A stretch of 64,000 bases of DNA from an uncultured Acidobacteriota bacterium (GCA_963741955.1 CAVUKB010000007.1:28246-92245); one strand, 5' to 3'. Positions 3,560 to 58,058 are shown, counted from the stretch's first letter. Translations and numbers: made by a program. Notes: generated from the letters alone by a model not told the origin.

Positions 3560-4420
3560 ATCATGGATCCGCACCGCTCGGGAACCTTGCAGGTTGAGGG
3601 GTGCGGATCCTCCGATCCGCGGCGAGAATCGCGTTCGAGCGCAATGAGACGGCGCTGTCGGCTGAGGCGAAGCCGCTCTCGCGAGACTCGCGCACTCCAC
3701 CGACGCTGCGCGCAACGCGACAGTCTCCGTCTTCCTCGGCTTCGACACGATCGTCGCCACTCGGGACCCCCGCAGATTGAGGGGTGCAGATCCTCCGATC
3801 TGCCGCGGACGTGGTGTTCGAGCGCAATGAGACGGCGCTGTCGGCTGAGGCGAAGCCGCTCTCGCGAGACTCGCGCATTCCACCGACGCTGCGCGCAACG
3901 GGACAGTCTCCGTCTTCCTCGGCTTCGACATGATCGTCGCCACTCGGGACCCCCGCAGATTGAGGGGTGCAGATCCTCCGATCTGCCGCGGACGTGGTGT
4001 TCGAGCGCAATGAGACGGCGCTGTCGGCTGAGGCGAAGCCGCTCTCGCGAGACTCGCGCATTCCACCGACGCTGCGCGCAACGGGACAGTCTCCGTCTTC
4101 CTCGGCTTCGACATGATCGTCGCCACTCGGGACCCCCGCAGATTGAGGGGTGCAGATCCTCCGATCTGCCGCGGACGTGGTGTTCGAGCGCAATGAGACG
4201 GCGCTGTCGGCTGAGGCGAAGCCGCTCTCGCGAGACTCGCGCATTCCACCGACGCTGCGCGCAACGGGACAGTCTCCGTCTTCCTCGGCTTCGACATGAT
4301 CGTCGCGGCGGATCAGAGGATCCGCACCCCCTCGGGGTCCCTGCAGGTTGACCCCCGAATTCCACCGACGCTGCGCGCAACGCCGCGGTCTCCGTCTTCC
4401 TCGGCTCCCCTCGCGCGGAG
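3560..4420. repeat. Intergenic tandem repeat array: 183-bp unit, about 4.6 copies. Each unit contains short hairpins, and the array is bracketed by a ggatccgcacc...ggtgcggatcc palindrome.
   Basis: Units start at about 3593, 3776, 3959 and 4142, exactly 183 bp apart, plus a partial diverged fifth copy. Copies are near-identical. ORFs through the array on both strands give repeating Arg-rich peptides and are unlikely to be coding. Confidence 0.85.
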
Positions 4421-4550: not shown

Positions 4551-6836
4551 ATGAGCACCGTCGAACCGCAAGCGCCCTCTCTCCCGGAGTTCGAAAAAGA
4601 AGTCGCCGAAACGCAGGAATGGCTCGACAGCCCCCGCTTCCGGGAGATCACCCGTCTCTACTCCGCACGACAGGTCGTCGAGCAGCGCGGCACGATCCGC
4701 ACGGAATACAGCGTCGCTCGCGACGCCGCGGTTGCTTTTTACGACCGCCTCCGCGAGCTCTTCCGCGAAAAGAAAGCGGTCACCACGTTCGGTCCCTATT
4801 CGCCCGGACAGGCGGTCGCCTTGAAGCGCATCGGAATCGAGGCGATTTACCTCGGCGGTTGGGCGACGTCGGCCAAGGGCTCGACCCACGAAGATCCCGG
4901 ACCCGATCTCGCCAGCTATCCCCTCAGTCAGGTCCCGGATGAGGCAGCGGTTCTGGTCCGCGCGCTCCTCGCGGCGGACCGCAACCAGCAGTTCCTTCGG
5001 TCGCGGATGAGCGAACAGCAACGGGCCAAGACGCCGGTCTACGATTTCCGCCCGTTCATCATCGCCGATGCAGATACGGGACACGGAGGCGATCCGCACG
5101 TACGGAATCTCGTGCGGCGCTTCGTCGAGGCAGGGGTGTCCGGGTACCACATCGAGGACCAGCGGCCGGGGACGAAAAAGTGCGGACATCAGGGGGGGAA
5201 GGTCCTGGTCGGATCGGACGAACAGATCAAGCGCCTGAACGCGGCGCGCTTTCAGCTCGACGTGATGCGCGTCCCTGGAATCATCGTGGCGCGAACGGAT
5301 GCCGAAGCGGCGACTCTCATCGACAGCCGCGGAGACGAGCGCGATCAGCCGTTCATCCTCGGCGCGACGAACGTGAACCTTCCCGCGTACAAGGCTGCGT
5401 TTCTCGCGCTGATGCGCCGGTTCCACTCACTCGGGGTGAAAGAACTGAACGGGTTCATGCTCTACGAACCGTCGGATGAAGAGATGCGGGACGCCGACGA
5501 GTGGCTCGAGCGGACCGGTCTGGCCGCCGAGGCGAAGGGAGCCATCGATCGGATCACCCGGAATGAAGGTTTCTCGGTCGATGCGCTCTTCGACAGCGTT
5601 GCGTCGCATCTGATCGAGATCTGGGAGGCGGAGGCGGGGCTCGAGACGTACAGCGAGGCGGTTGCGGACGTACTCGAGTTCCAGCAGAGCGAAGGCGAAC
5701 CGATCGAGATGACGCCGGAGGAATGGCGGATCTACGCGTCGCGCGCGTCTCTCTACGCGGCCCGGAAGACGGCGCGCTCGCTCGGAGTGAACATCGTCTG
5801 GAACTGCGAGCACGCGAAGACGCCGGACGGCTACTACCAGGTCCGTGGCGGAATCGAGTACGCCATCGCGAAGTCACTGGCTGTCGCCCCCTTCTCCGAC
5901 ATTCTCTGGATGGAAACGAAGACGGCGGATCTCGCCGACGCGAAGAGATTCGCGGACGCGATCCACGCGCGGTTCCCGGACAAAATGCTCGCCTACAATC
6001 TCTCGCCCTCCTTCAACTGGGATTCCACCGGAATGACTGATGACGACATGCGGGCGTTCCCCGGTGAGCTCGGTAAGATGGGATTCGTCTTCAACTTCAT
6101 CACCTATGGTGGCCATCAGATCGACGGACTGGCGGCAGAGGAGTTCGCGACCGCGCTGCGGCAGGACGGGATGCTCGCGCTCGCGAGGCTGCAGCGGAAG
6201 TTCCGGCTGGTCGAGTCGCCGTACCGCACGCCCCAGACGCTGGTCGGCGGCCCCCGTCTCGATGCCGCGCTCGCCGCATCGTCCGGCCGGACCGCCACCA
6301 CGAAGGCGATGGGGAAAGGATCGACGCAGCACCAGCATCTGATCCAGACCGAAGTCCCGAAGAAGCTGCTCGAGGAGTGGCTCGGAATGTGGGCCGACTA
6401 CTACCAGCTGCGAGGACCTCTCACCGTGGATCTGAGGCCGCAGCGGGCGGGGTCAGAGCTTCTGGAGCTGGCCATCGTGCGCAGCGACGAGAAGGAGGCG
6501 AACGTCATCTTCGCACCGATCCTGGACCGGCGGGAACGGACGATTCTTTCCGTACGCGACCAGAACACGTTCGACGAAGAGCTTCGAAGAAAGCGGCTGA
6601 TGACGCTGATCCACCTCTTCCTGATCCACCGCTACAAAGCCGAGTCGGTGCACTACGTCACTCCGACCGAGGACAACCAGTACCAGACCTCGAAGATGAA
6701 GTCGCACGGGATCTTCAGCCAGGTGAACACGGAGGTGGGACAGATCATCGTTGCGGATGTGAATCACCCGCGGATCGCCGAGCTCCTCGCGCCGGACCGC
6801 GAAGCTCTGTGGAAGTTGATCCGGAAAGAGGGGTAG
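4551..6836 (+). CDS. aceA: Isocitrate lyase, long form (ICL2/AceAb-like, about 761 aa)
   Basis: [12 protein letters not shown] catalytic signature. N-terminal MSTVEPQ... typical of ICL. ATG at 4551 with a GGAG RBS. The track ORF from 4296 is an upstream extension into the repeat array. Confidence 0.9.
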
Positions 6837-9982: not shown

Positions 9983-9998
9983 AAGAGAAGACGGTCCA

Positions 9999-10159
9999 GG
10001 AGTCTGCGCGGTAGAAACTGTCCTACTGCGAAAACGGATCAGCGGTCCAGATCCGTCCGGATTTTCGGCGAGTAGCCACCGCTACGCACCTCAAATTCGA
10101 ACGAAGTTGGCCTCGCTGCTCCGCCTTCTCGCGACGGACGTTCCTACCGTGCAGACTCC
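9999..10159 (+). mobile_element. MITE (A-type, about 161 bp) with 16-20-bp TIRs ggagtctgcgcggtagaaac / gtt(c/t)ctaccg(t/c)gcagactcc. Copy 1.
   Basis: Near-identical copies at 26272..26432 and 36393..36553. Its TIRs match the ends of the IS at 34798..36390. Confidence 0.8.
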
Positions 10160-10337
10160 TCGGCTCGCAAAGTTCCGGATTCGGAGCGAAGATGGGAAGC
10201 AGGAGCGGGCCGCGCGAGCGCGCGGTCCGTTCCGCCCCCTGAGCGTTCAGGCGAAGGGGAGGATTCGATCCGGGCTGAGATCGGAGTCGCCAAGGCGGAC
10301 GGGTCCGGCTCCCTGAGAGAGCCCTCGAGAGGGCCGC

Positions 10338-15389: not shown

Positions 15390-15530
15390 ACTTTCCGAGG
15401 ATCGGAAAAGCATCGCGGATCGAGGATTGAGGATCGCGGATCTGAAAAGCATCGCGGATCGAGGATTGAGGATCGCGTATCTGAGGAGCATTGGGGATCG
15501 GGGATCGGGGATCGGGGGTTGGGGAAAGCC
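15390..15530. repeat. Short tandem repeat: about 39-bp unit GATCGCGGATCTGAAAAGCATCGCGGATCGAGGATTGAG at about 2.7 copies, followed by (GGGGATCG)x3
   Basis: Seen directly after the stop of the 12164..15379 gene, in a convergent intergenic region. Confidence 0.7.
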
Positions 15531-19022: not shown

Positions 19023-19235
19023 CCGTCACGCGCTCCCAGCGCCGTATATGTGTTGAAAGAAACCTGTGCCGGCGGGAACACTCTCAATGTAATGCCGCAC
19101 CGGCAGAGTTTGCTGCACGAATAAAAATGTCCGCTCATTCTCCACCTCAGCGGGGCGGACTGCAAGATCCCCTAACTTTGGTTGAGGTCCTTTCGTTGCA
19201 GTATGTTGGGACGGGCGGATCCGTTTCGACGACCC

Positions 19236-19318
19236 TTCCCGGTAGGAACGTCCGGAGCGAGAAAGCGGAGCAGCGAGGCCAGATTCGTTCGGATTTGGGC
19301 CGCTGATCCGCTTTCGAG
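19236..19318 (-). mobile_element. Internally deleted remnant of the A-type MITE, reverse orientation, abutting the fdhD stop
   Basis: ggtaggaacgtccggagcgagaaagcggagcagcgaggccagattcgttcggatttg...gatccgctttcg matches the reverse complement of the MITE with about 45 bp of the centre missing. Confidence 0.55.
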
Positions 19319-20182
19319 CTAGCGCAGCCGCTCGGCTCCGGCGTAGACATTGAAGCGGCGATTCCGGACGAACCCGAGGAGCGTCATCCCTGCCTCGCGC
19401 GCCAGATCGACCGCGAGGGAGGAAGGCGCTCCGACCGCGGCGAGGAGGGGGATACCTGCGACCGCAGCCTTCTGGACGAGCTCGAAGCTCGCCCGGCCGC
19501 TGACCATCAGCACCGAGCTTGCGAGCGGAACGCGCCCGGCGAGAAATTCGCGGCCGATCACCTTGTCCAGAGCGTTGTGCCGGCCCACGTCTTCGCGGAG
19601 AGCTCTGAGCTCTCCCTCCCGCGAGAAGAGCCCCGATGCGTGCAGGCCGCCGGTCACGTCGAACGTCTCCTGTCGGCCGCGTAGCTCTTCTTCGAGCCGA
19701 TGGATGGTCGCCGAGTCGATCGAAAACGCCGAGGCGGACGAACGCACATACGGGATCCGAACCGCTTCGATCGAAGTCTTTCCGCAGATGCCGCAGCTCG
19801 AGGCGGTGTAGAAGTGACGCTCGAGTCGCGCGAGATCGGGGCTGATCGAGGAAGAGAGCGTCACCCGGACGATATTGGATCCGCCGTGGGGCTGCTGCGG
19901 CCCGCATGCGGCGATCTCTGCGATCTCGCCACGCTCCCGCACGATTCCTTCGGTGAAGAGAAAACCTGCCGCGAGCTCGTCGTCCTCCCCGGGAGTGCGC
20001 ATGGTGATGGAGATGGTCTGGCGCTGCGGCGCCCCTCCGTCCATCCATTCGAGCCGGATCTCCAGAGGCTCCTCGATGGCGACGGCGTCTTCGCGATTCG
20101 CGATCCGTTCGTCCGAGCAGAGCCCGATGCGATCGAGACGGAAACTCGAGATCGACGATCCGTCCGGCGGCGATAGAGACAT
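19319..20182 (-). CDS. fdhD: Formate dehydrogenase accessory sulfurtransferase FdhD
   Basis: SCGICGK motif and GGLHA...RHNALDK. About 287 aa from the ATG at 20182 with a GGAGGG RBS. The longer track ORF (507 aa) is an upstream extension. Confidence 0.85.
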   Translation of the reverse strand: MSLSPPDGSSISSFRLDRIGLCSDERIANREDAVAIEEPLEIRLEWMDGGAPQRQTISITMRTPGEDDELAAGFLFTEGIVRERGEIAEIAACGPQQPHGGSNIVRVTLSSSISPDLARLERHFYTASSCGICGKTSIEAVRIPYVRSSASAFSIDSATIHRLEEELRGRQETFDVTGGLHASGLFSREGELRALREDVGRHNALDKVIGREFLAGRVPLASSVLMVSGRASFELVQKAAVAGIPLLAAVGAPSSLAVDLAREAGMTLLGFVRNRRFNVYAGAERLR

Positions 20183-20356
20183 GTTCCCTCCGCATGCAAT
20201 TTCCGTGGAAGGAGGATTCACGCGGCCTGCCGCTTGCATCACTGCGAGTCGATTCGGACCTGAACGAGCGGAGGCGGCATGATCGGTGATCTTTTTCGCG
20301 ACTGGCCCCTGGTGCGGCAGATCCTCGAGGGAGGAGACGGTACCGGAGAGGAATCG

Positions 20357-23300
20357 ATGAGCCGCAGGACCCGTGAGCTCCGGCCGCGGAACGAAGACGC
20401 CGACGTCGCACGCTCGATCTGTCCCTACTGCGGGGTGGGCTGCGGACAGCTCATCTTCCACAAGGAAGGAAGGATCGTCTCCATCGAAGGAGATCCGGAG
20501 TCGCCGATCTCGCGCGGGCATCTCTGTCCGAAAGGTGCAGCGAGTCAGGAACTGCTCACCCATCCCGGGAGGCTCACGAAAGTCAGGTACCGCGCGCCCT
20601 ACACCACCGAGTGGCAGGAGATCTCTCTCGAGCGGGCCATGGAGATGATCGCCGACCGGGTCTGGCGCTCGCGCGAGAGGACGTTCGAGCAGAAGCGGGA
20701 CGGACGGACTCTGATGCAGTGCGGTGGCATCGCGCATCTCGGCGGGGCGACCCTCGACAACGAAGAGAACTACGTCATCAAGAAGCTCTTCACCGCAGGC
20801 CTCGGCATGGTGGCAGTCAGCAACCAGGCCCGGATATGACACAGCTCCACGGTGCCCGGTCTGGGCACCTCGTTCGGACGCGGCGGAGCAACCACCGCAC
20901 AGCAGGACCTCGCCAACGCAGACGCCATTCTGATCATGGGATCATCCATGGCCGAGAATCATCCGGTCGGATTCCAGTGGGTGGTCGAGGCGCGTGAACG
21001 AGGAGCGAAGGTCATCCACGTCGACCCCCGCTTCACCCGGACCTCTGCGATGGCCGATTACTGGGTTCCTCTTCGTCCCGGTACGGACATCGTCTTCCTC
21101 GGCGGGATGGTCAACTACGTACTGCAGAACGACCGCGCTTTCCGCGAATACGTCGCGCACTACACCAACGCTCCCACCATCCTGAAGGAGGAGATGCAGG
21201 ACACCGAGGACCTCGGCGGCCTCTTCTCGGGATGGAATGACGACAAACAGCAGTACTCGCCGGAGAGCTGGTTCTACGAAGGTGCGAAGCGTAAGAGAAG
21301 ACCGAAGTCGAAGGAGCGTGAAGTCGCCGGACACGAGCCCGAAGGGGGAGGTCATGGGAAAGACCGCGGCGGCGAAGCTCAGAGCGTCAAGGACGGAGCG
21401 ATCGATCGTGATCCGGCCCTCGAGCATCCGCGCTGCGTCTACCAGGTATTGAAGCGACACTTCGAGCGCTACACGCCGGAGATGGTCGCCCGCTGCTGCG
21501 GTATTCCGAAGGAAGCCTTCCTGGAGGTGGCGGAGACGTTCGTCGCGGCGTCCGGTCCGGAGAAGACCGGCGCGATCTGCTACGCGGTGGGATGGACCCA
21601 GCACTCGACCGGCGTGCAGATCATCCGCACCGCAGCGATCCTCCAGCTGCTGCTCGGAAACATCGGACGCCCCGGCGGTGGAATCCTCGCCCTGAGGGGT
21701 CATGCCTCCATTCAGGGCTCCACCGACATTCCGACGCTCTACGACATCCTCCCCGGCTATCTCGCGATGCCCTTCTTCGAGGCGGATTCCGATTCCCTCA
21801 AGCAGTACATCCGGAAGCATTCCGCGAAGACCGGCTGGTGGGCGAACTTCGACAAGTACATCGTCAGCCTCCTCAAAGCCTACTTCGGCGAAGCAGCGAC
21901 GAAGGAAAACGAATACGGATTCCATTGGCTGCCGCGGGTGACCGGCGACCACTCGCACCAGGGCTACTGGCTGGAGATGATGGACGGCGGACTCGAGGGG
22001 CTGTTCGTGATGGGACAGAACCCTGCGGTCGGTGCGCCGAACGCAGGGTTGGAGCGGAAAGCGCTCGCGAAGCTCAAATGGCTCGTGGTGCGCGACCTCG
22101 TCGAGACGGAGACGGCGAGCTTCTGGTACGACTCGGCGGAAGTCAGGCGCGGGGAGGTGAAGCCGGAAGAGATCGGGACGGAAGTCTTTCTGATGCCCGC
22201 GGCCGGGCACGCCGAGAAGGAAGGGACGTTCACCAACACGCAGAGGCTCCTGCAATGGCACGAGAAGGCGGTCGATCCCCCCGGCGACGCCCGGAGCGAG
22301 ACGTGGTTCGTCGTCCATCTCGGCAATCTCCTCAAGGAAAAAGCGAAGGCGGAGGGGGGGCCGCGTAACGAAGGACTGAACGCACTCTGGTGGGACTACG
22401 AGCTCGAAGGACGGATGGGCGAGCCGAACGTTCAGCAGATTCTCGCGGAGATCAACGGCTGGACGGTGAAGGACCGGAAGCTCGTGAGCGGCTTCACCGA
22501 CCTGAAGGCGGACGGCTCCACCGCTTGCGGATGCTGGATCTACTCCGGAGTCTTTCCGTCTCACGACGAGAACAAGGCTCACAAGCGCGATCCTCGAGGC
22601 CCGTACGGTCACGGGTGGGGATTCGCCTGGCCCTCGGACCGGAGGATTCTCTACAACCGCGCGTCGGCCCGGCCGGACGGGCAGCCCTGGAGCGACAAGA
22701 AGAAGCTCATCTGGTGGGATGAAGAGAAGGGCGAATGGACGGGAGACGACGTTCCGGATTTCACGAAAGACAAACGCCCGGACTACAAGCCGAAGAAGAC
22801 GTCGAGAGGCGATGCGGGAACGGCCGGCGACCAGCCGTTCATCATGCATTCGGATGGAGTCGGATGGATCTGGGTTCCGTCGGGACTGAAAGACGGACCG
22901 CTCCCGACCCATTACGAACCGCTGGAGTCGCCGGTCAGAAATCCGCTGTACGAGACGCAGGTCAACCCGGCCGCCGACCGGAAGGAACGCCCCGACAATC
23001 CGTACGCGTCGTCACCTGATCCGAAGTTTCCCTACGTCCTCACGACGTACCGGCTGACCGAGCACCATACCGCAGGCGGGATGACCCGGCCGCTCTCACA
23101 TCTCGCCGAGCTTCAACCGGAGCTGTTCTGCGAGATCTCGCCCGAGCTCGCCGCGGAAGCGGGAGTCGAGCATGGGTCGTGGGCGAGGATCTCCACCCCG
23201 AGGGGAGAAATCCGCGCGCGGGTGATGGTCACCGGAAGGATGCGGTCGATGGAGGTGGAGGGGAAAGTCATCCATCAGGTGGGACTGCCGTATCACTGGG

Positions 23301-23434
23301 GATCGAAGGGACTGGTCCAGGGAGACGTAGTGAACGACCTGGTCGCGATGTCCGAAGAACCGAACGTCAGGATCATGGAGACGAAGGCCCTGCTGTGCAA
23401 CCTCGAAAGCATCGGGGAAGCATCTGATATCTGA
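20357..23434 (+). CDS. fdhA: Formate dehydrogenase catalytic (molybdopterin) subunit, selenocysteine-containing. In-frame TGA at 20837..20839.
   Basis: ORFs 20279..20839 and 20852..23434 are in the same frame. CPYCGVGCG FeS motif. The sequence VSNQARI-TGA-HSSTVPGLGTSFGRGG aligns with E. coli FdnG/FdhF ...ARV-U-HGP(S/T)VA.LA..FGRGAM. The start could also be 20279. Confidence 0.8.
20851..20869 (+). promoter_or_regulatory. SECIS-like hairpin 11 nt downstream of the in-frame UGA
   Basis: ggugccc-GGUCU-gggcacc stem-loop with G/U in the apical loop, as in bacterial fdhF SECIS. Confidence 0.6.
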
Positions 23435-23591
23435 TATCTGATATCTATTATCGATTATCTGACACGATAATTACGATCGCTATTAATTCATTAGATATCA
23501 GTTATCAATAACGATTGGATATAAACACACAAACCACAGACCCGAATTACTGACAGATAATAGATAATAGATAACAGATAATAGATAAACC
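23435..23591. repeat. AT-rich island (far below the local ~68% GC) between fdhA and fdhB with direct repeats (GATATCT)x3 and (AGATAAT/C)x5 in inverted arrangement at its two ends
   Basis: tctgatatctgatatctgatatctattatcgattatc ... cagataatagataatagataacagataatagataaacc. Occupies the entire 157-bp fdhA-fdhB spacer. Confidence 0.7.
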
Positions 23592-24374
23592 ATGTCTCTC
23601 ACAGGATTTCTCACCGACTCGACCCTCTGCATCGGCTGCAAGGCATGCGAAGTGGCGTGCAAGGAATGGAACGAGGTGCCGGAGGATGGCCTCGTCTGGA
23701 GCGGGATGTCGTACGACAACACCCTCGCTCTCGGCGGATCGACCTGGCGGCACGTGAAGTTCCTCGAATTCGATCCGGAGATCGGGAAGGGAGGAAACTC
23801 CGCGGAGCGGGTGACGTGGGAGTTCTCCTCGGATGTCTGCAAGCATTGCGAAGTCGCCGGATGCCTCGAGGCGTGTCCGACCGGCTCGATCGTCCGCACC
23901 GAGTTCGGAGGCGTCTACGTCCAGCCGGACGTCTGCAACGGATGCGGATACTGTGTGGTCACCTGCCCGTTCGGGGTGATCGACAAGCGCATCGAAGACG
24001 GACGGATGTTCAAGTGCACGTTCTGCTACGACCGTCAGAAGGCGGGGGCGGAGCCTGCCTGTGCGAAGGCGTGCCCGACTCAGTCGATTCTGTTCGGCGA
24101 TCTCGACACGCTGCGGGAGCGTGCAGGTGAACGAATCCGCGAGCTCCAGTCCGCGGGGATGGACGACGCGACGCTGTGGGATCCGCAGCACACCACGGTG
24201 GAAGGAACGCACGCGATCTTCATCGTGCGTGGGGATCCGGCGAGTTACAACCTTCCCCCGAATCCGGAAGTACCACAGGCGAAGCTCTATGCCGGATGGA
24301 TGTCGGCCGCCGTCACGGCCGGGGCGATCCTTCTCGGTTCGGTGGTCGCGTTCGCCGCAGGAGGCCGCCGATGA
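23592..24374 (+). CDS. fdhB: Formate dehydrogenase iron-sulfur subunit (4x[4Fe-4S], FdnH-like) with a C-terminal TM anchor
   Basis: CIGCKACEVACKEWN, CKHCEVAGC, CNGCGYCVVTCPFG and CTFCYDR clusters. C-terminal hydrophobic helix. Confidence 0.85.
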   Translation: MSLTGFLTDSTLCIGCKACEVACKEWNEVPEDGLVWSGMSYDNTLALGGSTWRHVKFLEFDPEIGKGGNSAERVTWEFSSDVCKHCEVAGCLEACPTGSIVRTEFGGVYVQPDVCNGCGYCVVTCPFGVIDKRIEDGRMFKCTFCYDRQKAGAEPACAKACPTQSILFGDLDTLRERAGERIRELQSAGMDDATLWDPQHTTVEGTHAIFIVRGDPASYNLPPNPEVPQAKLYAGWMSAAVTAGAILLGSVVAFAAGGRR

Positions 24375-25378
24375 AGGAACGGATTCCGAGCCGGGTCAGC
24401 GAAGCGCGCCTCGACCAGCTCCGTCAGGAAGCAGAAATCCGGGGACGGGTGAAGGAGCCGGGGATCCGACCGCTCGGCGCTCCTTTCCCGCAGGCGACCC
24501 CGGAGCACGGCTACTACGGACTTCCTCTGCTCAAGAAGCCGACCTGGAAGTGGGAGATCCCGGCATACTTTTTCGTCGGCGGCGCGGCAGGAGCCGCTGC
24601 GGTCGTCGGTGCTGCGGCCCAGCTGAGTGGTGACGAACGGCTGGTGCGTGAGGCACGCTGGGTTGCCGCGGCCGGAGCGACTCTTTCTGCTCCGCTGCTC
24701 GTCTCCGACCTCGGCCGGCCGGAACGTTTTCTCGCCATGCTCCGGGTGTTCAAGCTCCAGAGCCCGATGTCGGTCGGTGCGTGGACGCTGACCGCATTCG
24801 GTTCGACCAGTGCGGCAGCGGCGTTCGCGAAGTTGATCGAGGAGAAGAGCGAGGGGCGCACGCCGGTTCGCATTCTCGGCGACGCGGCTGCGGCGCTCTC
24901 CGCGGCGACCGGTCTCGGAATGGCGACCTACACCGGAGTCCTCGTCGGCGCGACGGCGATCCCGGTGTGGCAGGAGAACGTGCGGCTCCTCCCTCTCCAC
25001 TTCGGCGCGTCGGCTCTCGCCTCGGCCGTCTCCCTCCTCGAGCTTCTCGGCAATCGCAACGGCGCGCTGAACGCACTCGGCTTCGGCGCCGCGGTGGTCG
25101 AGACCGGAGTCGGAGCGGTCTTCGAGAATGAAACCGGACGCGCGTTCAAGCCGCTCAAAGAGGGAGAGAGCGGAACGATCACCCGAATCGGCGGCGTCCT
25201 CTCCGGACCGGCGCCGCTTCTGCTCCGTCTCGCCAGTGCACTGGTCGGGAGCGGATGGCGCCTCCGTCAGGCCGCAGCGGTCTCCAGTCTCGCCGGATCG
25301 CTGATCACACGCTACGCATGGCTCGAAGCGGGAAAAGAATCGGCGAAGGATCCGACGATCCCGCTCGAGATCGAGTGA
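24371..25378 (+). CDS. Formate dehydrogenase membrane subunit, NrfD/PsrC-like polytopic anchor
   Basis: ATGA overlap with fdhB. About 8 predicted TM helices rich in Gly and Ala. Start at the internal Met of track ORF 24176. Confidence 0.65.
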   Translation: MKERIPSRVSEARLDQLRQEAEIRGRVKEPGIRPLGAPFPQATPEHGYYGLPLLKKPTWKWEIPAYFFVGGAAGAAAVVGAAAQLSGDERLVREARWVAAAGATLSAPLLVSDLGRPERFLAMLRVFKLQSPMSVGAWTLTAFGSTSAAAAFAKLIEEKSEGRTPVRILGDAAAALSAATGLGMATYTGVLVGATAIPVWQENVRLLPLHFGASALASAVSLLELLGNRNGALNALGFGAAVVETGVGAVFENETGRAFKPLKEGESGTITRIGGVLSGPAPLLLRLASALVGSGWRLRQAAAVSSLAGSLITRYAWLEAGKESAKDPTIPLEIE

Positions 25379-25406
25379 ACCGCGTCGTTCGGACGAAAGA
25401 CTCCAG

Positions 25407-25940
25407 CTACGGCCCGACCGTGAAGCGGTCGATCATCCACTGACCGCTCTCGGCTTTGCGGAACCTCACCCGCGAAGGCTGTGGTCCGGGAGCCGGGATC
25501 TGCTGCGATTGCCGTCCGAACGCCGTCGGTTCCCAGTCCCACGTGAATTCGACGTCGGCCATCCGCTCATCGGCATTGACGGTCTTCACGTCCTTGAGCT
25601 GCCGGTGAGCGGTCGGGATCTTCCAGAGCGTCAGTGAGCCGTACGGTTCGCTCTTCCACCCCTTCGACGCTTCTCTTCCCTTCGCAGTCAGCTGGCAGCT
25701 CCCGGCGCCGCCTCCCTCCGGGAACTGGCAGGCGATGAAGCCGTTCGCGGTCGCGGCCATCTGTGACGCGTAGTAGCTGTACTCCTCGGTCAGTCCGTCT
25801 CCGGTATAGATCTGACCGACTGCGGGCTCGCTGAATTCCTTCGACTGCTCGATCAGCTTCGTCGCTTCCTCTTTCGGAATCCCGGAAGAACAGGCGAGCA
25901 CGAAGAAGGACGCGGCGGCAAGGATGGCGAGACGTTTCAT
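25407..25940 (-). CDS. Lipoprotein, hypothetical (lipobox LAC)
   Basis: MKRLAILAAASFFVLACSS signal/lipobox. No family recognised. Confidence 0.6.
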   Translation of the reverse strand: MKRLAILAAASFFVLACSSGIPKEEATKLIEQSKEFSEPAVGQIYTGDGLTEEYSYYASQMAATANGFIACQFPEGGGAGSCQLTAKGREASKGWKSEPYGSLTLWKIPTAHRQLKDVKTVNADERMADVEFTWDWEPTAFGRQSQQIPAPGPQPSRVRFRKAESGQWMIDRFTVGP

Positions 25941-26090
25941 CGACTCTTCCTTTCGCCCGGACGATGAACGGTGAGAGCTCCGGGCCGGGTCGTTTGCACG
26001 CCGATGTTATCAAAGTGTCGCGATGGAGGGTCATCTCCTCCGAGGCGGATTTTCGCATTCGGAGCAGGTTCTGCTGATGAGGAGGGGCCA

Positions 26091-26269
26091 GCCCGCATTT
26101 CTCACACCGTCTCGTCGCGAGGAGGCGGAGAGTGGCTTGGATGCAAGGCGCGCGCAGTTTCGGCGACGAAGGCATAGTGGTGACTATGTTGAGGAGCCGA
26201 AGCTGTGCGCAACGTGGCAGACAGGCCGCTATCCGTCTCCGCAGCAGAGACGATGTGAGAAATGCGGGC
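26091..26269 (+). mobile_element. B-type non-autonomous element (about 179 bp) with 16-bp TIRs gcccgcatttctcaca / tgtgagaaatgcgggc. Copy 1.
   Basis: Second copy at 34617..34795 (about 90% identical). Both are followed by TA and then an A-type TIR. Confidence 0.7.
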
Positions 26270-26271
26270 TA

Positions 26272-26432
26272 GGAGTCTGCGCGGTAGAAACTGTCCTACT
26301 GCGAAAGCGGATCAACGGTCCAAATCCGCCCGGATTTTCGGCGAGTAGCCACCGCTACGCACCTCAAATCCGAACGAATTTGGCCTCGTTGCTCCGCTTT
26401 CTCGCTACGGACGTTTCTATCGCGCAGACTCC
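26272..26432 (+). mobile_element. MITE A-type, copy 2
   Basis: About 95% identical to the copies at 9999 and 36393. Perfect TIRs. Confidence 0.8.
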
Positions 26433-26446
26433 TAGAAGTCCGATCG

Positions 26447-34059: not shown

Positions 34060-34617
34060 ATGGGTCGCTACATCCAGAAGGTATCGATCGGATCGAGGGA
34101 GACGTGGGTCGGCTGGATCCTCGACGGCATCGAAGGGGAGATCGACGGATTGACTCCGGCCGACGAGATGTCGGAAGAGGAGCTTGCCCTGAAAGGGGTC
34201 CGCGAGTTCCATCAGGCTCCGCGGGCCATGCTCGGTCAGGTCGAGAAGCGTCGTCGTCGCCGGATCCGGCTCTCGGCGCCCCTGCAGGCGAACGTCAATT
34301 CACGGACGGCGGAAGTGTGGGATCTGAGCTCGAGCGGAGTCGGGATCCAGCACCAGTTCAAGCTCAAACCCGCCACGGAGATCACGGTGGAGATCCAGGG
34401 CCCGGAAGGCCGGAGGTCACTCCGGTTCGAGGTGCTTCGCTGCGAGCTCTCCCGGAGTCTGAAGGCGACCGGAGAGATCCTCTACTACTCGGCGCTCAGA
34501 CTCGCGGATGGAGCGATGGACGCCGGCGAGTTTCTCCGGCGGTTGATGGACCGCAATGCGGACAACGCGTTCGGCCTCCCGGACGGGGCGGCGCGTTCAC
34601 GTCACGCATTCCTCTAG
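34060..34617 (+). CDS. PilZ domain protein (c-di-GMP receptor)
   Basis: RRRRRIR (RxxxR) and DLSSSGVGI (DxSxxG) motifs. AGGAGG RBS before the ATG at 34060. Confidence 0.6.
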   Translation: MGRYIQKVSIGSRETWVGWILDGIEGEIDGLTPADEMSEEELALKGVREFHQAPRAMLGQVEKRRRRRIRLSAPLQANVNSRTAEVWDLSSSGVGIQHQFKLKPATEITVEIQGPEGRRSLRFEVLRCELSRSLKATGEILYYSALRLADGAMDAGEFLRRLMDRNADNAFGLPDGAARSRHAFL

Positions 34618-34795
34618 CCCGCATTTCTCACACCGTCTCGTCGCGAGGAGGCGGAGAGTGACTTGGATGCAAGGCGCGCCCGGCTTCGGCGACGAAGGCA
34701 TAGTGGTGACTATGTCGAGGAGCCGAAGCGGGGCGCAACGCAGCAGACACACCGCTATCCGTCTCCGCAGCAGAGATGGTGTGAGAAATGCGGGC
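34617..34795 (+). mobile_element. B-type element, copy 2, directly 5' of the IS
   Basis: Same TIRs as 26091..26269. The junction reads gcgggc-TA-ggagtctgcgcggtag. Confidence 0.7.
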
Positions 34796-34797
34796 TA

Positions 34798-36390
34798 GGA
34801 GTCTGCGCGGTAGGACGAAACTTCGGCGCTTCCTGAAGATCTCGGAAGACGTCCACTCGCGAGCGGCACAACCGCGGCACCGAAGCGCCTTCAGGTTGAT
34901 GGTGCCGTTCTCGGGGAGTTGGCAGCGCGAAACACTTGTTCGGCGGGACTTTTCGGGGGTTGGATACTGCTCTGCCGCGGCTATTCGAGCGCAACCAGAG
35001 CGCTCATTCGCTTTAGATTGATCACCAGGCACACCAGAGCCCATTCGCCGGCAACTTTGCGCATCCCGCGGAGACTGAATCGTCGAAAGCCGAGAACGTT
35101 TTTGACCCAGCCAAACACCGGTTCAACGATTGCCTTTCGCCGGCGATAGACCGCCTTGCCTGGAGGTGAGTCCAACTTCTGCTTCATCCGCAGAGTCGCG
35201 GGGAGCGTCGTCTCAGCTGCGGCTTCTTTACCTTCTCGTCCGAGAGAAACATAGGCATCGATCTTCTTCTGCTCCAACTCGATGAACGAGGTTTCCGATC
35301 TGTAGCCGGCGTCTGCAACAACCTGGTCGGGAGTTGTTTCGCAATTCTGTTCGACCACCTCGACCAAAGGCAGGAGTGATCCGCTGTCCGCCGCAGATTG
35401 TGTGATCTCGAATCCAACGATGAGTTGGTTATAGGCATCAACTGCGATCTGCGCGTTGTAGCACTGCTGAAATCCTTCCTGGGACTTCATGATTCGGCTC
35501 TCGGAATCGGTGAAGTTTTCTTGCGCTTTGTCATCAGGTACGCCGAACTTCCGTTTGAATGGCTTACCCTTCTTCCTGGCCGGATCATCGTCGCCTTCGG
35601 AGCGACCATCCTTCGTGTCCTGTTCCCGCTGCCGTTGTTCGAGTCGCTCTCGTGCCTCTTTGATTTTTTGGATACGAGTCTCCCGGCGCTGGAGCTCTTC
35701 GGGCAACTCATCCCCGCGTCGATCAACTCCGTACTCGGCATCCTCCCGGGCATCCTCCTCCGCCGCGGTGGCCAAAATGTCCGCGATCTCCTTCTCGAGT
35801 TTTGCTTGTTCCTTCTTCATCCGATCGTAGCTCATCGCCTTGTGCTTGCTGGCATTCGCTCGGACCTTCGACCCGTCGATTGCAATCCTCCCGAGCGTAA
35901 CTAACCCTGTTTCCTGGGCGGTCCGAATGATCTGGACCAGTAAGGAGCTGAACGCGTCCACATGCTCGAGCCGAAAGTCGCAGATGGTTCGATGCGACGG
36001 AAAGTTCCCGGCCGCAAGATACCGGACGGCGACATCTTCATCGATCCGCCGGGCAATCTTGCGCGAGGAGAACGTTCCCGTCAGGTACGAATAGATGATC
36101 AACTTGAGCATCATCCTTGGCTCGTACGGCTGCTTCCGTCTCCCGTCGCCTTTGTACGGCTCGTAGAATGCACTCAGATCGAGCTGATCGACGATGTCGA
36201 AAACGAAGTGCGCCAAGTGACCCTCAGGGAGCCAGTCATATGGCGAGGGCGGAAGCAGCAGCGACTGCTCCGGTCGGTATGGCCTATACGTGGTCGGCAT
36301 GACCCAATCTTACCATATTATTGTTATTACTAATCATACCCTTTTATCATGTTCCTTTGCCGTGCACCGGTTTTCTACCGCGCAGACTCC
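34798..36390 (-). mobile_element. Complete IS element, IS1182-like (IS5 superfamily), about 1.6 kb, with TIRs ggagtctgcgcggtag shared by the A-type MITEs
   Basis: Left end ggagtctgcgcggtaggacgaaac. Right end gttttctaccgcgcagactcc. One DDE transposase ORF inside. Confidence 0.75.
34981..36300 (-). CDS. IS1182/IS5-superfamily DDE transposase
   Basis: N-terminal DUF772-like MMLKLIIYSYLTGTFSSRKIARRI. DGSKVRANAS. Coiled-coil insert. C-terminal VEPVFGWVKNVLGFRRFSLRGMRKVAGEWALVCLVINLKRM. Confidence 0.8.
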   Translation of the reverse strand: MPTTYRPYRPEQSLLLPPSPYDWLPEGHLAHFVFDIVDQLDLSAFYEPYKGDGRRKQPYEPRMMLKLIIYSYLTGTFSSRKIARRIDEDVAVRYLAAGNFPSHRTICDFRLEHVDAFSSLLVQIIRTAQETGLVTLGRIAIDGSKVRANASKHKAMSYDRMKKEQAKLEKEIADILATAAEEDAREDAEYGVDRRGDELPEELQRRETRIQKIKEARERLEQRQREQDTKDGRSEGDDDPARKKGKPFKRKFGVPDDKAQENFTDSESRIMKSQEGFQQCYNAQIAVDAYNQLIVGFEITQSAADSGSLLPLVEVVEQNCETTPDQVVADAGYRSETSFIELEQKKIDAYVSLGREGKEAAAETTLPATLRMKQKLDSPPGKAVYRRRKAIVEPVFGWVKNVLGFRRFSLRGMRKVAGEWALVCLVINLKRMSALVALE

Positions 36391-36392
36391 TA

Positions 36393-36553
36393 GGAGTCTG
36401 CGCGGTAGAAACTGTCCTACTGCGAAAGCGGATCAACGGTCCAAATCCGCCCGGATTTTCGGCGAGTAGCCACCGCTACGCACCTCAAATCCGAACGAAT
36501 TTGTCCTCGTTGCTCCGCTTTCTCGCTACGGACGTTTCTACCGCGCAGACTCC
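36393..36553 (+). mobile_element. MITE A-type, copy 3, separated from the IS right end only by TA
   Basis: Junction gactcc-TA-ggagtc forms a palindrome. Confidence 0.8.
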
Positions 36554-36657
36554 TAGCGGCGAGGAGGGATTCCGCGACGTGATTCGTCCCTCCCGGCGGA
36601 GTCGCTGAACCTTCGTCTCCCTCTTCTCTTCGGATCTCATGCGATAATCGCCCGGTT

Positions 36658-56325: not shown

Positions 56326-56460
56326 TCAGAGCCTGCGGGGCAGAAAACGTCCTGCTGAGACAGCGGATCAGCGGTCCGGATCGCTCCGGAACTCCGGCGC
56401 GCACCCGGCCGCGCTGCTCCTCTTTCTCGCAACGGGATTTCTGGCGTGCAGGATCCTGCA
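56326..56460 (+). mobile_element. Degenerate A-type MITE-like sequence upstream of, and overlapping, the 5' end of the 56488 gene
   Basis: gcctgcggggcagaaaacgtcctgctgagacagcggatcagcggtcc... is about 70% similar to the MITE consensus. Confidence 0.4.
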
Positions 56461-57891: not shown

Positions 57892-57995
57892 TCCCGTGCG
57901 GACTCCGGCTGGTTTCTACCCGATAATGAAAACACATATCGACTTATGATATGTGCGAGTAAGTATACGCTCGGCTAAAGATATTCTTTATCTCT

Positions 57996-58032
57996 GAATG
58001 TCGTCCGGTGCCGGGAGTCTGCGCAGTAGGAT
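57996..58032. repeat. Minimal solo-TIR element: A-type left and right TIRs back-to-back (ggagtctgcgcagtag-gatg-gtttctaccgcgcag)
   Basis: Seen directly. Preceded by another TIR-like fragment (ggtttctacccgat at about 57912) and a low-GC hairpin island. Confidence 0.55.
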
Positions 58033-58058
58033 GGTTTCTACCGCGCAGCCTTCAGTAG

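What the first reader, a model, noticed from the sequence alone, without database searches (positions are those of the whole stretch)
23435..23591. AT-rich repeat island (GATATCT x3 ... AGATAAT x5) between fdhA and fdhB in an otherwise ~68% GC operon
A 157-bp spacer with this composition inside a normally tightly coupled alpha-beta gene pair is unexpected. Its two ends carry tattatc-type repeats in inverted orientation. It could be an internal promoter or UP element, a nucleoid-protein (IHF/H-NS-like) binding platform, or the footprint of a small mobile element.
Basis: seen in the sequence. Interest (0 to 1): 0.5.

Follow-up and report, generated by a model that had tools for sequence, protein, structure and literature searches.

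The report
Inverted 7-base repeat insert splitting fdhA–fdhB
The AT-rich spacer is a real, lineage-specific insertion made of two opposed arrays of 7-base tandem repeats, folding into a long hairpin, that split a normally overlapping formate dehydrogenase gene pair; similar inverted 7-base arrays bracket a small gene of unknown function in several phyla.

Summary
Window 23422-23588 holds two arrays of degenerate 7-nt tandem repeats, TGATATC-type on the left and AGATAAY-type on the right. They lie in inverted orientation around a 90-nt AT-rich core. GC is 29%, against 63-68% for the operon.

Neither the 7-nt periodicity nor the arm complementarity was matched in any of 20,000 shuffles. The left array supplies the fdhA stop codon. 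The right array ends 3 nt before an fdhB ATG that has no Shine-Dalgarno sequence.

In 49 of 70 orthologous operons fdhA and fdhB overlap, 39 of them by 4 nt, so this is an insertion. Inverted heptamer arrays with other units were inserted independently at or near this junction in other Acidobacteria, and once in frame inside fdhA. All 10 PF05635 (23S-rRNA-IVS protein) genes I examined are bracketed by such arrays.

My best reading is an ORF-less, IVS-like palindromic insert. Its RNA hairpin (-46.6 kcal/mol, z -5.85) puts the fdhA stop and the fdhB start at the base of one helix, which would keep the two genes translationally coupled. That mechanism is inferred, not shown.

I found no support for a promoter, a terminator, an Rfam family or a high-copy MITE. 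The kind is known (heptanucleotide SSR arrays) but poorly understood; this is a new variant. I did not find the link to PF05635 in the literature I searched.

The parts
20279..23434 (+). fdhA, the selenocysteine-containing formate dehydrogenase alpha subunit, read through the TGA at 20837-20839.
   Evidence: Pfam Molybdop_Fe4S4, Molybdopterin and Molydop_binding. NF041513 at 1310 bits and TIGR01553 at 820.7 bits, above its 814.2 cut-off. The ARI-U-HSSTVPG motif is visible. A SECIS_3-like match lies at 20834-20892 (31.8 bits, below the gathering score).
23422..23462 (+). Left heptamer array: TGATATC x3, TATTATC, GATTATC, TGACA. It overlaps the last four fdhA codons and carries the stop codon (TGA 23432-23434). 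Its TGAs fall in all three frames.
   Evidence: TRF period 7, 5.9 copies. Motif positions. Sequence.
23463..23552 (+). AT-rich, non-periodic central core, which forms the loop region of the hairpin.
   Evidence: Sequence. Outside the arrays the period-7 signal is at background level. The MFE structure shows only small local stems here.
23553..23588 (+). Right heptamer array: (C/T)AGATAA x5, that is AGATAAT x3, AGATAAC and AGATAAA. It is the inverse complement of the inner part of the left array and ends 3 nt before the fdhB ATG.
   Evidence: TRF period 7, 4.9 copies, 92%. Inverted pairs I1-I4 and I8.
23415..23600 (+). Predicted long imperfect RNA hairpin of about 40 bp with single mismatches every 7 nt. 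Its base contains the fdhA stop codon on the 5' strand and the fdhB AUG on the 3' strand, where the AUG pairs with 23421-23423.
   Evidence: MFE -46.6 kcal/mol, z -5.85, 0 of 200 shuffles as stable.
23592..24374 (+). fdhB, the 4Fe-4S beta subunit. It has no Shine-Dalgarno sequence in the 25 nt upstream (atagataacagataatagataaaccATG).
   Evidence: Pfam Fer4_11. FDH-beta. Homologues start at the same residue. Most orthologues have a GGAG-type SD here.
24371..25378 (+). fdhC, an NrfD-type membrane subunit. It still overlaps fdhB by 4 nt, so the ancestral type of junction is retained at this position.
   Evidence: Gene calls in L001 mapped to the window. Pfam NrfD.

Best explanation
The spacer is a lineage-specific insertion of a palindromic 'inverted heptamer-array' element. 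It consists of two arrays of degenerate 7-nt tandem repeats (NGATAWY units, single-base relatives of the TAACTGA heptamer) facing each other across a 90-nt AT-rich core. It landed in the 3' end of fdhA and replaced the ancestral 4-nt ATGA overlap with fdhB.

I read it as an ORF-less member of the same architectural class as the array-bracketed cassettes that elsewhere carry a PF05635 (23S-rRNA intervening-sequence protein) gene. In other words, it is an IVS-like selfish insert rather than a purpose-built regulator.

It would be tolerated, and would 'work', for three reasons:

1. The left array provides stop codons in all three frames, so FdhA ends cleanly after a shortened, non-conserved tail.
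2. In the polycistronic mRNA the two arrays pair. This loops out the whole 157-nt insert and puts the fdhA stop and the fdhB AUG at the base of one helix.
3. A ribosome finishing fdhA melts the outer helix. That exposes the A/U-rich, SD-less fdhB start region, so fdhB translation stays coupled to fdhA.

Shown: the anatomy, that it is not chance, that it is an insertion, and that the architecture recurs.

Inferred: that it shares an origin or mechanism with the PF05635 cassettes, that the RNA fold forms in vivo, and the coupling mechanism.
For: - Anatomy and statistics.
- Insertion: 70 orthologous junctions were measured. 39 overlap by 4 nt and 49 overlap in some way, and no spacer of useful length (>=19 nt) is AT-rich; only the 13-nt L166 gap has comparably low GC (0.31). 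Thermoanaerobaculia relatives L209 and L211 overlap by 4 nt.
- The FdhA tail after the conserved C[ND] is 10 aa here against about 20-24 aa in orthologues, and its last codons and stop come from the array.
- Recurrence of the architecture in related operons, each with a different unit: L185 has GCAGCCT arrays that begin with the fdhA TAG and end 2-3 nt before the fdhB ATG, enclosing a PF05635 gene. L005 has (TGAGAGG)24 starting in the last fdhA codons. L130 has an AAGGCAG/CCTTCTG hairpin between a stop codon and the fdhB start.
- L127 and L211 carry a GGAAGGA/TTCATCC pair inserted in frame inside fdhA.
- 10 of 10 distinct PF05635 loci are bracketed by inverted short-unit arrays that abut neighbouring stop and start codons.
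- AGATAAY arrays are widespread and multicopy in unrelated genomes. They lie in sense orientation at the stop codon of a >=120-codon ORF in 23 of 62 low-GC loci, against 1 of 62 in antisense.
- RNA model: opening the fdhB start region costs 18.1 kcal/mol in free mRNA (9.4-15.3 for five other genes in the window). It costs 7.8 kcal/mol with a ribosome footprint on the fdhA stop.
- Several of the other long spacers at this junction are also significant hairpins (L120 z -7.3; L151, L165 and L195 z about -2.1 to -2.5; L127 and L158 are not).
- SD-less start codons directly behind heptamer arrays are the rule for TAACTGA arrays (PMC4679880).
Against: - There are no transcript or protein data, so the fold and the coupling are purely thermodynamic inference.
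- 18 kcal/mol could equally mean that fdhB is repressed or that the mRNA is cleaved.
- No PF05635 gene or fragment lies in the spacer or anywhere else in the 64-kb window.
- No second copy of the element occurs in the window.
- The rest of the source genome could not be searched.
- No closely related empty site is available. The nearest FdhB is 77-78% identical, so the insertion boundaries and any target duplication are undefined.
- Units differ between all the cassettes, so common descent is not demonstrated. Independent slippage plus template-switching could give the same architecture.
Confidence: 0.45

Rival explanations
1. Intercistronic processing or stability element. The roughly 40-bp imperfect duplex is an RNase III-type substrate, as the stems of 23S rRNA intervening sequences and Correia elements are. 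Cleavage would separate fdhA from fdhBC mRNA and set their relative stability and translation.
For: - A long, significantly stable helix.
- The architectural link to PF05635/IVS cassettes. That IVS stems are cut by RNase III is established knowledge, not tested here.
- No terminator follows the stem.
Against: - FDH needs equimolar alpha and beta subunits, so differential decay has no obvious benefit.
- The stem is A-U/G-U rich with a mismatch every 7 nt.
- There are no cleavage data.
- This is compatible with, not exclusive of, the best explanation.
Confidence: 0.2
2. DNA-level regulatory island. The AT-rich tract would act as an internal promoter or UP element for fdhBC, or as a binding platform for a nucleoid or heptad-repeat-binding protein, as the TTTTGAT heptads of the ctxAB promoter bind H-NS and ToxT.
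For: - The spacer is the most AT-rich 160 bp in a 63% GC window.
- One weak sigma-70-like match lies at 23424-23451.
- Heptad repeats are known protein platforms in the ctx promoter (bioRxiv 10.1101/2021.05.14.444153, listed). A regulatory role is also proposed in Nostoc.
Against: - The promoter scan is at chance level: 1 found, 0.6 expected, 9/12 match.
- A 7-bp spacing puts successive sites on different faces of the helix.
- Related arrays in other operons are GC-rich (TGAGAGG, GCAGCCT, AAGGCAG), so AT-richness is not the shared property.
- fdhB has lost its SD, which argues for dependence on upstream translation rather than independent expression.
Confidence: 0.12
3. Classical MITE: a non-autonomous transposon with terminal inverted repeats, mobilised in trans by a transposase and present in many copies in the genome.
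For: - A size of about 165 bp, imperfect terminal inverted repeats and an AT-rich body, inserted relative to orthologues.
- In Clostridia MAG Soudan_22, AGATAAY arrays form the ends of about 190-200-nt palindromic elements that share their internal sequence between copies.
Against: - No target-site duplication.
- No second copy or partial copy in 64 kb even with 3 mismatches allowed. A true 167-nt MITE-like family shows 3 full and 2-3 partial copies in the same window.
- In Kiritimatiellae and Oscillospiraceae MAGs the copies share only the arrays, not a body.
- The 'TIRs' are tandem repeats whose units differ from locus to locus.
Confidence: 0.1
4. Locally generated simple-sequence repeats, arising by polymerase slippage plus quasi-palindrome template switching. 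They would have no function, or would act as a phase-variable contingency locus.
For: - Heptanucleotide SSRs are over-represented in prokaryotic intergenic DNA (Mrazek 2007, as cited in PMC4692102).
- Copy number of an array differs between samples at one PF05635 locus: 14 against 8 units in L199 and L203.
- The window has another heptamer array, (GGGGATC)4.7, at 15493-15525.
Against: - The ancestral junction was a 4-nt overlap with no spacer to expand from.
- AT-rich units in a 63% GC genome are not what local slippage would amplify.
- The same AGATAAY units recur in many phyla.
- Four assemblies show no copy-number variation, but they are one strain.
- With stops in all frames, a change in unit number would not switch anything.
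Confidence: 0.1

Closest known systems
TAACTGA intergenic heptamer direct repeats (Beggiatoaceae, Cyanobacteria, Bacteroidetes; MacGregor 2015, PMC4679880)
   Same: Both are tandem 7-nt units with stop codons in the unit. They sit in forward orientation a few nt upstream of start codons that lack a Shine-Dalgarno sequence, and some overlap the end of the upstream ORF. The window's units are single-base variants: TGATATC and AGATAAC/T against the rotated TGATAAC.
   Different: The unit is not TAACTGA. Here two arrays lie in inverted orientation and form a hairpin, whereas only 1 of 170 sets in that genome was inverted. Multicopy status is unknown in this genome. The phylum is Acidobacteriota. 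The function of the TAACTGA arrays is itself only hypothesised (binding by S1, Csp or CsrA).
GGGNATC / GGGGAYT heptamer repeats of Xanthomonas and Nostoc (Rehm 2015, PMC4692102) and cyanobacterial STRR heptamers (Mazel 1990, from memory and as cited)
   Same: These are intergenic heptanucleotide arrays, some inside operons (pecE-pecF) and some as inverted pairs able to form stem-loops. They vary in length between close relatives. The window also has a (GGGGATC)4.7 array at 15493-15525.
   Different: Those units are G-rich and were discussed as G-quadruplex formers. The fdh spacer arrays are AT-rich and cannot form G4 structures.
23S rRNA intervening sequences and their PF05635 / TIGR02436 'four helix bundle' (Avd-like) ORFs
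   Same: An insert bounded by complementary ends loops out of a functional RNA as a long stem.
   Different: The window's element has no ORF and sits in an mRNA, not an rRNA. RNase III excision is untested. I did not find the array-IVP association stated in the literature I searched, so it is my observation, not an established defining feature.
Correia elements (Neisseria) and REP/BIME or RPE palindromic elements (from established knowledge, not tested here)
   Same: These are inserts of roughly 100-160 bp with inverted ends, located in intergenic or intercistronic DNA and co-transcribed into hairpins that affect mRNA processing and stability. RPEs insert in frame into genes, as the L127/L211 array pair does in fdhA.
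   Different: Those families have conserved, non-tandem sequences, are highly multicopy, and in the case of Correia elements have TA target duplications. Here the arms are tandem heptamers, and there is no duplication and no second copy in the window.
Translational coupling through long-range RNA pairing (MS2/Qbeta coat-replicase type; established knowledge)
   Same: The downstream start is sequestered by pairing with sequence in or next to the upstream cistron and is freed by ribosomes translating that cistron. This is the model proposed for the fdhA stop and the fdhB start.
   Different: It is an analogy of mechanism only. There is no homology and no experimental evidence here.

Membership tests
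Heptanucleotide tandem-repeat (SSR) arrays of prokaryotic intergenic DNA | At least 3 head-to-tail copies of a 7-nt unit | tested here: met
   TRF gives 5.9 and 4.9 copies. The period-7 signal was reached by 0 of 20,000 shuffles.
Heptanucleotide tandem-repeat (SSR) arrays of prokaryotic intergenic DNA | Intergenic position, close to start or stop codons | tested here: met
   The left array contains the fdhA stop. The right array ends 3 nt before the fdhB ATG.
TAACTGA repeat family (MacGregor 2015) | Unit sequence TAACTGA | tested here: not met
   The units are TGATATC, TATTATC and AGATAAY, which are single-base variants of the rotated unit.
TAACTGA repeat family (MacGregor 2015) | Many sets per genome | not testable with these tools
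   Only 64 kb of the genome is held.
MITE | Terminal inverted repeats and a small size (<500 bp) | tested here: met
   31 nt at 84% and 60 nt at 73% complementarity, in an element of about 165 bp.
MITE | Target-site duplication flanking the element | tested here: not met
   The flanks are ...GGGGAAGC and AAACCATG..., which share no direct repeat. The boundaries are uncertain because no empty site is available.
MITE | Multiple dispersed copies sharing the internal sequence | tested here: inconclusive
   No other copy occurs in the 64-kb window with up to 3 mismatches, whereas a real 167-nt family has 3-6 copies there.
PF05635 (23S rRNA IVS protein) cassette | Encodes a PF05635 / TIGR02436 protein | tested here: not met
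   jackhmmer over all window ORFs found none. The core is only 90 nt.
   Window. Cassettes: L117, L185, L072, L067, L199-206, L207, L208, L212, L213 and L215.
RNase III-processed intercistronic hairpin / IVS stem | Cleavage of the stem in vivo | not testable with these tools
   Only the predicted fold is available.
Intrinsic terminator | GC-rich stem followed by a U-run | tested here: not met
   The scan found 0 terminator-like sites in 22900-24100. The stem is A-U rich and is followed by AAACCAUGUCUC.
Sigma-70 promoter | -35 and -10 hexamers with 16-18 nt spacing | tested here: inconclusive
   One 9/12 match (CTGATA-16-TATTAT) against 0.6 expected by chance.
Any Rfam family | Covariance-model match | tested here: not met
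   Only SECIS_3 at the Sec codon matched, and nothing in the spacer, at E<=1.
Phase-variable contingency SSR | Copy-number polymorphism that switches frame or promoter spacing | tested here: inconclusive
   The four assemblies are identical, but they are 99.98-100% identical overall and so are one strain. Stops in all three frames make a frame switch irrelevant.

The most novel reading that the evidence does not exclude
Inverted heptanucleotide arrays are the cis-acting ends of a previously unrecognised, phylum-spanning family of insertion cassettes. The ORF-bearing form of the cassette carries the PF05635 (23S-rRNA-IVS / Avd-like four-helix-bundle) gene, and the fdhA-fdhB spacer is an ORF-less member.

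The arrays would serve two purposes. They would be the recognition or recombination sites, possibly bound by the PF05635 protein. They would also form the RNA stem that loops the insert out of host transcripts, which would let the cassettes settle inside operons, rRNA genes and even ORFs.

If true, this would give a mechanistic origin for the long-noted excess of heptanucleotide repeats in prokaryotic intergenic DNA and a function for PF05635.
Probability: 0.25. Interest if true: 0.85.

Novelty: new variant of a known kind. Interest (0 to 1): 0.6.

Why it matters
Heptanucleotide repeat arrays have been known in bacteria since 1990 and are statistically over-represented. Their origin and function remain speculative (PMC4679880, PMC4692102, bioRxiv 10.1101/2022.06.06.494920).

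This locus offers a clean natural experiment. An ancestrally overlapping, translationally coupled gene pair was split by a 157-nt inverted-array insert that took away the downstream Shine-Dalgarno sequence, yet the operon is otherwise intact, with a Sec codon, a SECIS-like element, and fdhB-fdhC still overlapping. That makes a concrete hypothesis testable with simple reporters: the paired arrays keep the two cistrons coupled, or alternatively mark the mRNA for RNase III.

The side observation may matter more. All ten PF05635 genes examined, from at least four phyla, are bracketed by inverted heptamer arrays. This links two orphan phenomena and suggests a family of operon-invading cassettes.

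Tried and rejected
- **Rfam:** an E<=1 scan of 19800-25800 found nothing in the spacer.
- **Promoter and terminator scan:** results were at chance level.
- **Other copies in the window:** searches for the arm motif and for other low-GC islands found none. The other islands look like ordinary intergenic DNA.
- **Genome-contig scan with CAGATAATNGATAATAGATA:** this was meant to find other copies in the source genome. It did reveal the wide distribution of AGATAAY arrays.
- **First orientation analysis:** a crude call of the longest open frame was too ambiguous. I replaced it with a stop/start-proximity test.
- **All-vs-all BLAST of array flanks:** there is no shared body in the Kiritimatiellae or Oscillospiraceae MAGs, only in Soudan_22.
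- **P0002:** its apparently high score came from an internal duplication in a short contig, not from a close relative. Its junction is a plain 4-nt overlap.
- **Identical spacer in L001-L003:** I rejected this as evidence of constraint because the assemblies are the same strain.
- **Viral-contig search for PF05635 relatives:** no confirmed hit.
- **Literature:** searches for PF05635 or IVS protein together with repeats, and for STRR, found no paper describing array-flanked IVP genes.
- **G-quadruplex, RNA thermometer and ribosomal bypass:** I considered these for the spacer and dropped them. There are no G-runs, the stem is too stable, and nothing suggests a fused product.

Full report
**1. 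What is there**

The window is 63% GC, and FdhB homologues place its source in a Thermoanaerobaculia (Acidobacteriota) MAG.

The genes around the finding are:

- fdhA, 20279-23434. It contains an in-frame TGA at 20837-20839 in the motif ARI-U-HSSTVPG, with a SECIS_3-like match directly behind it. It is therefore a selenocysteine formate dehydrogenase alpha subunit.
- fdhB, 23592-24374, a 4Fe-4S beta subunit.
- An NrfD-type fdhC, 24371-25378, which overlaps fdhB by 4 nt.

Between the fdhA stop and the fdhB ATG lie 157 nt of 29% GC, the lowest-GC stretch in the 64 kb.

The tract is built from two arrays of 7-nt tandem repeats:

- The left array, 23422-23462, reads TGATATC x3, TATTATC, GATTATC, TGACA. 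It begins four codons before the end of fdhA and contains its stop codon. Its three TGAs fall in all three reading frames.
- The right array, 23553-23588, is (C/T)AGATAA x5 and ends 3 nt before the fdhB ATG.

The arrays are inverse complements: 31 nt at 84%, and 60 nt at 73%. Neither the period-7 signal nor the arm complementarity was matched in any of 20,000 shuffles.

**2. It is an insertion**

I measured 70 orthologous fdhA-fdhB junctions, taken from metagenome contigs and two look-ups:

| Junction | Count |
|---|---|
| 4-nt ATGA overlap | 39 |
| Other overlaps (-1, -11, -26 nt) | 10 |
| 6-61 nt spacer | 12 |
| 94-197 nt spacer | 6 |
| More than 500 nt | 3 |

In all, 49 of the 70 overlap in some way. 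No spacer of useful length (>=19 nt) is AT-rich; only the 13-nt L166 gap has comparably low GC (0.31).

Two Thermoanaerobaculia relatives, L209 (FdhB 78% identical) and L211, overlap by 4 nt.

In orthologues the FdhA tail after the conserved Cys-Asn/Asp runs about 20-24 residues, and the fdhB Shine-Dalgarno sequence (GGAG) is embedded in it. In the window the tail is 10 residues (LESIGEASDI*), its end is encoded by the array, and no Shine-Dalgarno sequence precedes fdhB.

Four assemblies carry the identical spacer, but they are the same strain at 99.98-100% identity. This excludes an assembly artefact and says nothing about constraint.

**3. What kind of thing the repeats are**

The units are single-base variants of the TAACTGA heptamer when it is rotated to TGATAAC. 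MacGregor (PMC4679880) found TAACTGA as 170 intergenic sets in a Beggiatoa-family genome. Most lay in forward orientation a few nt upstream of start codons without a Shine-Dalgarno sequence, and some overlapped the upstream ORF's end.

Heptanucleotide arrays are a known, over-represented and functionally unexplained class of prokaryotic SSR. In Xanthomonas and Nostoc they include inverted pairs and operon-internal cases (PMC4692102).

AGATAAY arrays occur in Bacteroidota, Bacillota, Kiritimatiellota, Bdellovibrionota, cyanobacteria and others. They are multicopy in some MAGs, including a 64% GC Kiritimatiellae genome.

Among low-GC loci, 23 of 62 arrays lie in sense orientation at or within 40 nt after the stop codon of a >=120-codon ORF, against 1 of 62 in antisense. 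In 10 of 115 cases a second, inverted array follows within 500 nt.

**4. Inverted heptamer arrays behave as insertions in related operons**

In the roughly 0.5 Mb of orthologous Acidobacteria loci, TRF found several period-7 arrays that come as inverted pairs, each with a different unit:

- L130: (AAGGCAG)4.6 and (CCTTCTG)4.7, forming a hairpin between a stop codon and the fdhB start.
- L156: AAACCAG and TTCTGGT.
- L127 and L211: GGAAGGA and TTCATCC, inserted in frame inside fdhA and adding about 21 residues.
- L005, the closest FdhB relative: (TGAGAGG)24 beginning in the last fdhA codons, followed by a toxin-antitoxin-like pair (a 75-aa ribbon-helix-helix-type ORF and a 134-aa ORF with no Pfam hit).
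- L185: arrays of GCAGCCT that begin with the fdhA TAG and end 2-3 nt before the fdhB ATG. They enclose a PF05635 (23S rRNA intervening-sequence protein, TIGR02436, Avd-like) gene.

So the same junction was hit independently at least three times (window, L005, L185). Each time the first unit provides the fdhA stop.

**5. The PF05635 association**

Every PF05635 gene I could examine is bracketed by short-unit tandem arrays in inverted orientation. Nine loci have 7-nt units and one has 8-nt units. The arrays usually abut the stop or start codons of the neighbouring genes.

- L117, Bacteroidales: AGATAAY / RTTATCT.
- L067: CAGATAA.
- L072, Hyella (cyanobacterium): AGGCAAG / CTTGCCT.
- L185.
- L199-206: (CTTACGG)14 or (CTTACGG)8, depending on the sample, with CCGTAAG on the other side.
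- L207: 8-mers.
- L208.
- L212, Phycisphaeraceae: AGGCTTG / CCTCAAG.
- L213.
- L215, Vicinamibacterales.

Background density of such arrays in the held Acidobacteria DNA is roughly one per 30 kb, so 10 of 10 is not chance.

I found no paper stating this. Earlier papers note only that these genes sit inside rRNA intervening sequences and between cas genes.

The window's element has the same architecture but no ORF, and there is no PF05635 gene in the 64 kb. Its membership of a common mobile family is therefore a hypothesis, which I report as the novel case.

**6. How it most likely works**

As RNA, 23415-23600 folds into a long imperfect hairpin: -46.6 kcal/mol, z -5.85, with 0 of 200 shuffles as stable. 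The fdhB AUG pairs with 23421-23423, and the fdhA stop lies 9 nt into the 5' strand of the same helix.

Opening the fdhB initiation region (-20 to +13) costs 18.1 kcal/mol in free mRNA, compared with 9.4-15.3 for five other starts in the window. It costs only 7.8 kcal/mol when a ribosome footprint is placed on the fdhA stop.

With the Shine-Dalgarno sequence gone, the simplest working model is structure-mediated translational coupling. The insert loops itself out, and the terminating ribosome unzips the base of the helix and frees an A/U-rich start.

Several of the other long spacers at this junction are also significant hairpins (L120 z -7.3; L151, L165 and L195 z about -2.1 to -2.5), though L127 and L158 are not. 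This partly fits the idea that mainly self-pairing inserts are tolerated here.

This step is inference. The same helix could instead be an RNase III site, as in 23S rRNA intervening sequences and Correia elements, or could simply repress fdhB.

**7. Alternatives examined**

- **Promoter and terminator:** one 9/12 promoter-like match against 0.6 expected, and no terminator.
- **Rfam:** nothing in the spacer.
- **Classical MITE:** there is no target duplication and no second copy in the window. A genuine 167-nt GC-rich palindromic repeat family is present 3-6 times in the same 64 kb.
- **Local slippage or phase variation:** the ancestral junction had no spacer to expand, and the units are AT-rich in a GC-rich genome. 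Stops in all frames would neutralise any change in unit number, and no polymorphism is seen, though only one strain is available.
- **Nucleoid-protein binding:** this could not be tested.

**8. Verdict**

The feature is real and non-random, and it is an insertion. It belongs to the known but poorly understood class of prokaryotic heptanucleotide repeat arrays.

It is a distinctive variant in three respects. It is an inverted pair forming a hairpin. It splits an otherwise conserved coupled junction. And its architecture links it to array-bracketed PF05635 cassettes.

Its function is inferred, not shown. The main limit is that the rest of the source genome, and any close relative lacking the insert, could not be examined.

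Noticed in passing
window 20837-20839 and 20834-20892: fdhA has an in-frame TGA in the motif ARI-U-HSSTVPG, followed by a sub-threshold SECIS_3 match (31.8 bits, E 3e-4). The ORF list therefore splits the gene into 20279-20839 and 20852-23434.
   Followed up: partly
10 loci: L117:1330-1960, L185:1135-1713, L072:170-760, L067:7600-8000, L199:817-1442 (same locus in L200-L206), L207:677-1402, L208:850-1465, L212:651-1121, L213:621-1096, L215:524-1106: All 10 distinct PF05635 (23S rRNA IVS protein / four-helix-bundle, Avd-like) genes examined are bracketed by inverted tandem arrays of 7-nt units (8-nt in L207). The units differ from locus to locus. The arrays often abut neighbouring stop and start codons, and the loci come from Bacteroidales, a cyanobacterium, Acidobacteria and Planctomycetota. 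I did not find this in the literature I searched.
   Followed up: yes
L199:817-914 vs L203:534-589: The same PF05635 locus from different metagenome samples has (CTTACGG)14 in one and (CTTACGG)8 in the other, so these arrays change copy number within a population.
   Followed up: no
L211:492-567 and L127:2065-2161: An inverted heptamer pair (GGAAGGA... / TTCATCC...) lies inside the fdhA coding sequence, in frame. It adds about 21 residues relative to the window's FdhA, which recalls the in-frame Rickettsia palindromic elements.
   Followed up: partly
L005:4944-5115 and 5315-5950: In the closest FdhB relative (77%), fdhA is followed by (TGAGAGG/TGAGAAG)24 starting in its last codons. A toxin-antitoxin-like pair then lies on the opposite strand (a 75-aa ORF with a weak ribbon-helix-helix RH3_dom hit and a 134-aa ORF with no Pfam hit), giving a 1046-nt gap before fdhB.
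   Followed up: partly
L006-L118 (113 loci from genome contigs): (Y)AGATAA(Y) heptamer arrays are widespread. They are multicopy in some MAGs: Oscillospiraceae Hm464_bin22 (16 loci), Kiritimatiellae RGIG3612 (12) and Clostridia Soudan_22 (9). They lie in sense orientation at the stop codon of the upstream gene in 23 of 62 low-GC loci, against 1 of 62 in antisense. They are often followed by a terminator-like hairpin.
   Followed up: partly
L008, L049, L069, L081, L083, L096 (Clostridia MAG Soudan_22): These loci hold palindromic elements of about 190-200 nt with the layout (AGATAAY)n-AGTTAAGG-hairpin ... hairpin-CCTTAACT-(RTTATCT)n. Copies share their internal sequence, so they are MITE-like. 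A similar array-plus-AGTTGAGGG-plus-hairpin module occurs in Ruminococcus and other Clostridia MAGs, with compensatory changes in the hairpin.
   Followed up: partly
window 15399-15525: Directly after the stop of the 12164-15379 gene lies a complex repeat: a 39-nt unit x3 made of GGATCGN-type heptamers, then (GGGGATC)4.7. This is the G-rich heptamer type described in Xanthomonas and Nostoc.
   Followed up: no
window 9996-10162, 26269-26435, 36390-36556; partial copies at 19225-19297, 56329-56406 and about 57995-58040: A GC-rich 167-nt palindromic dispersed repeat with ends CTAGGAGTCTGCGCGGTAGAAAC..., which is a genuine MITE/REP-like family in this genome. A separate 198-nt repeat lies at 26090-26287 and 34616-34813 (93%).
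   Followed up: no
window 3577-4306: A 183-bp unit repeated 4 times in tandem at 97% identity. I did not examine it.
   Followed up: no
L120:816-965: Another orthologous fdhA-fdhB junction carries a 130-nt, 73% GC, strongly palindromic insert (MFE -101.5, z -7.3). L195 holds a further hairpin insert.
   Followed up: no
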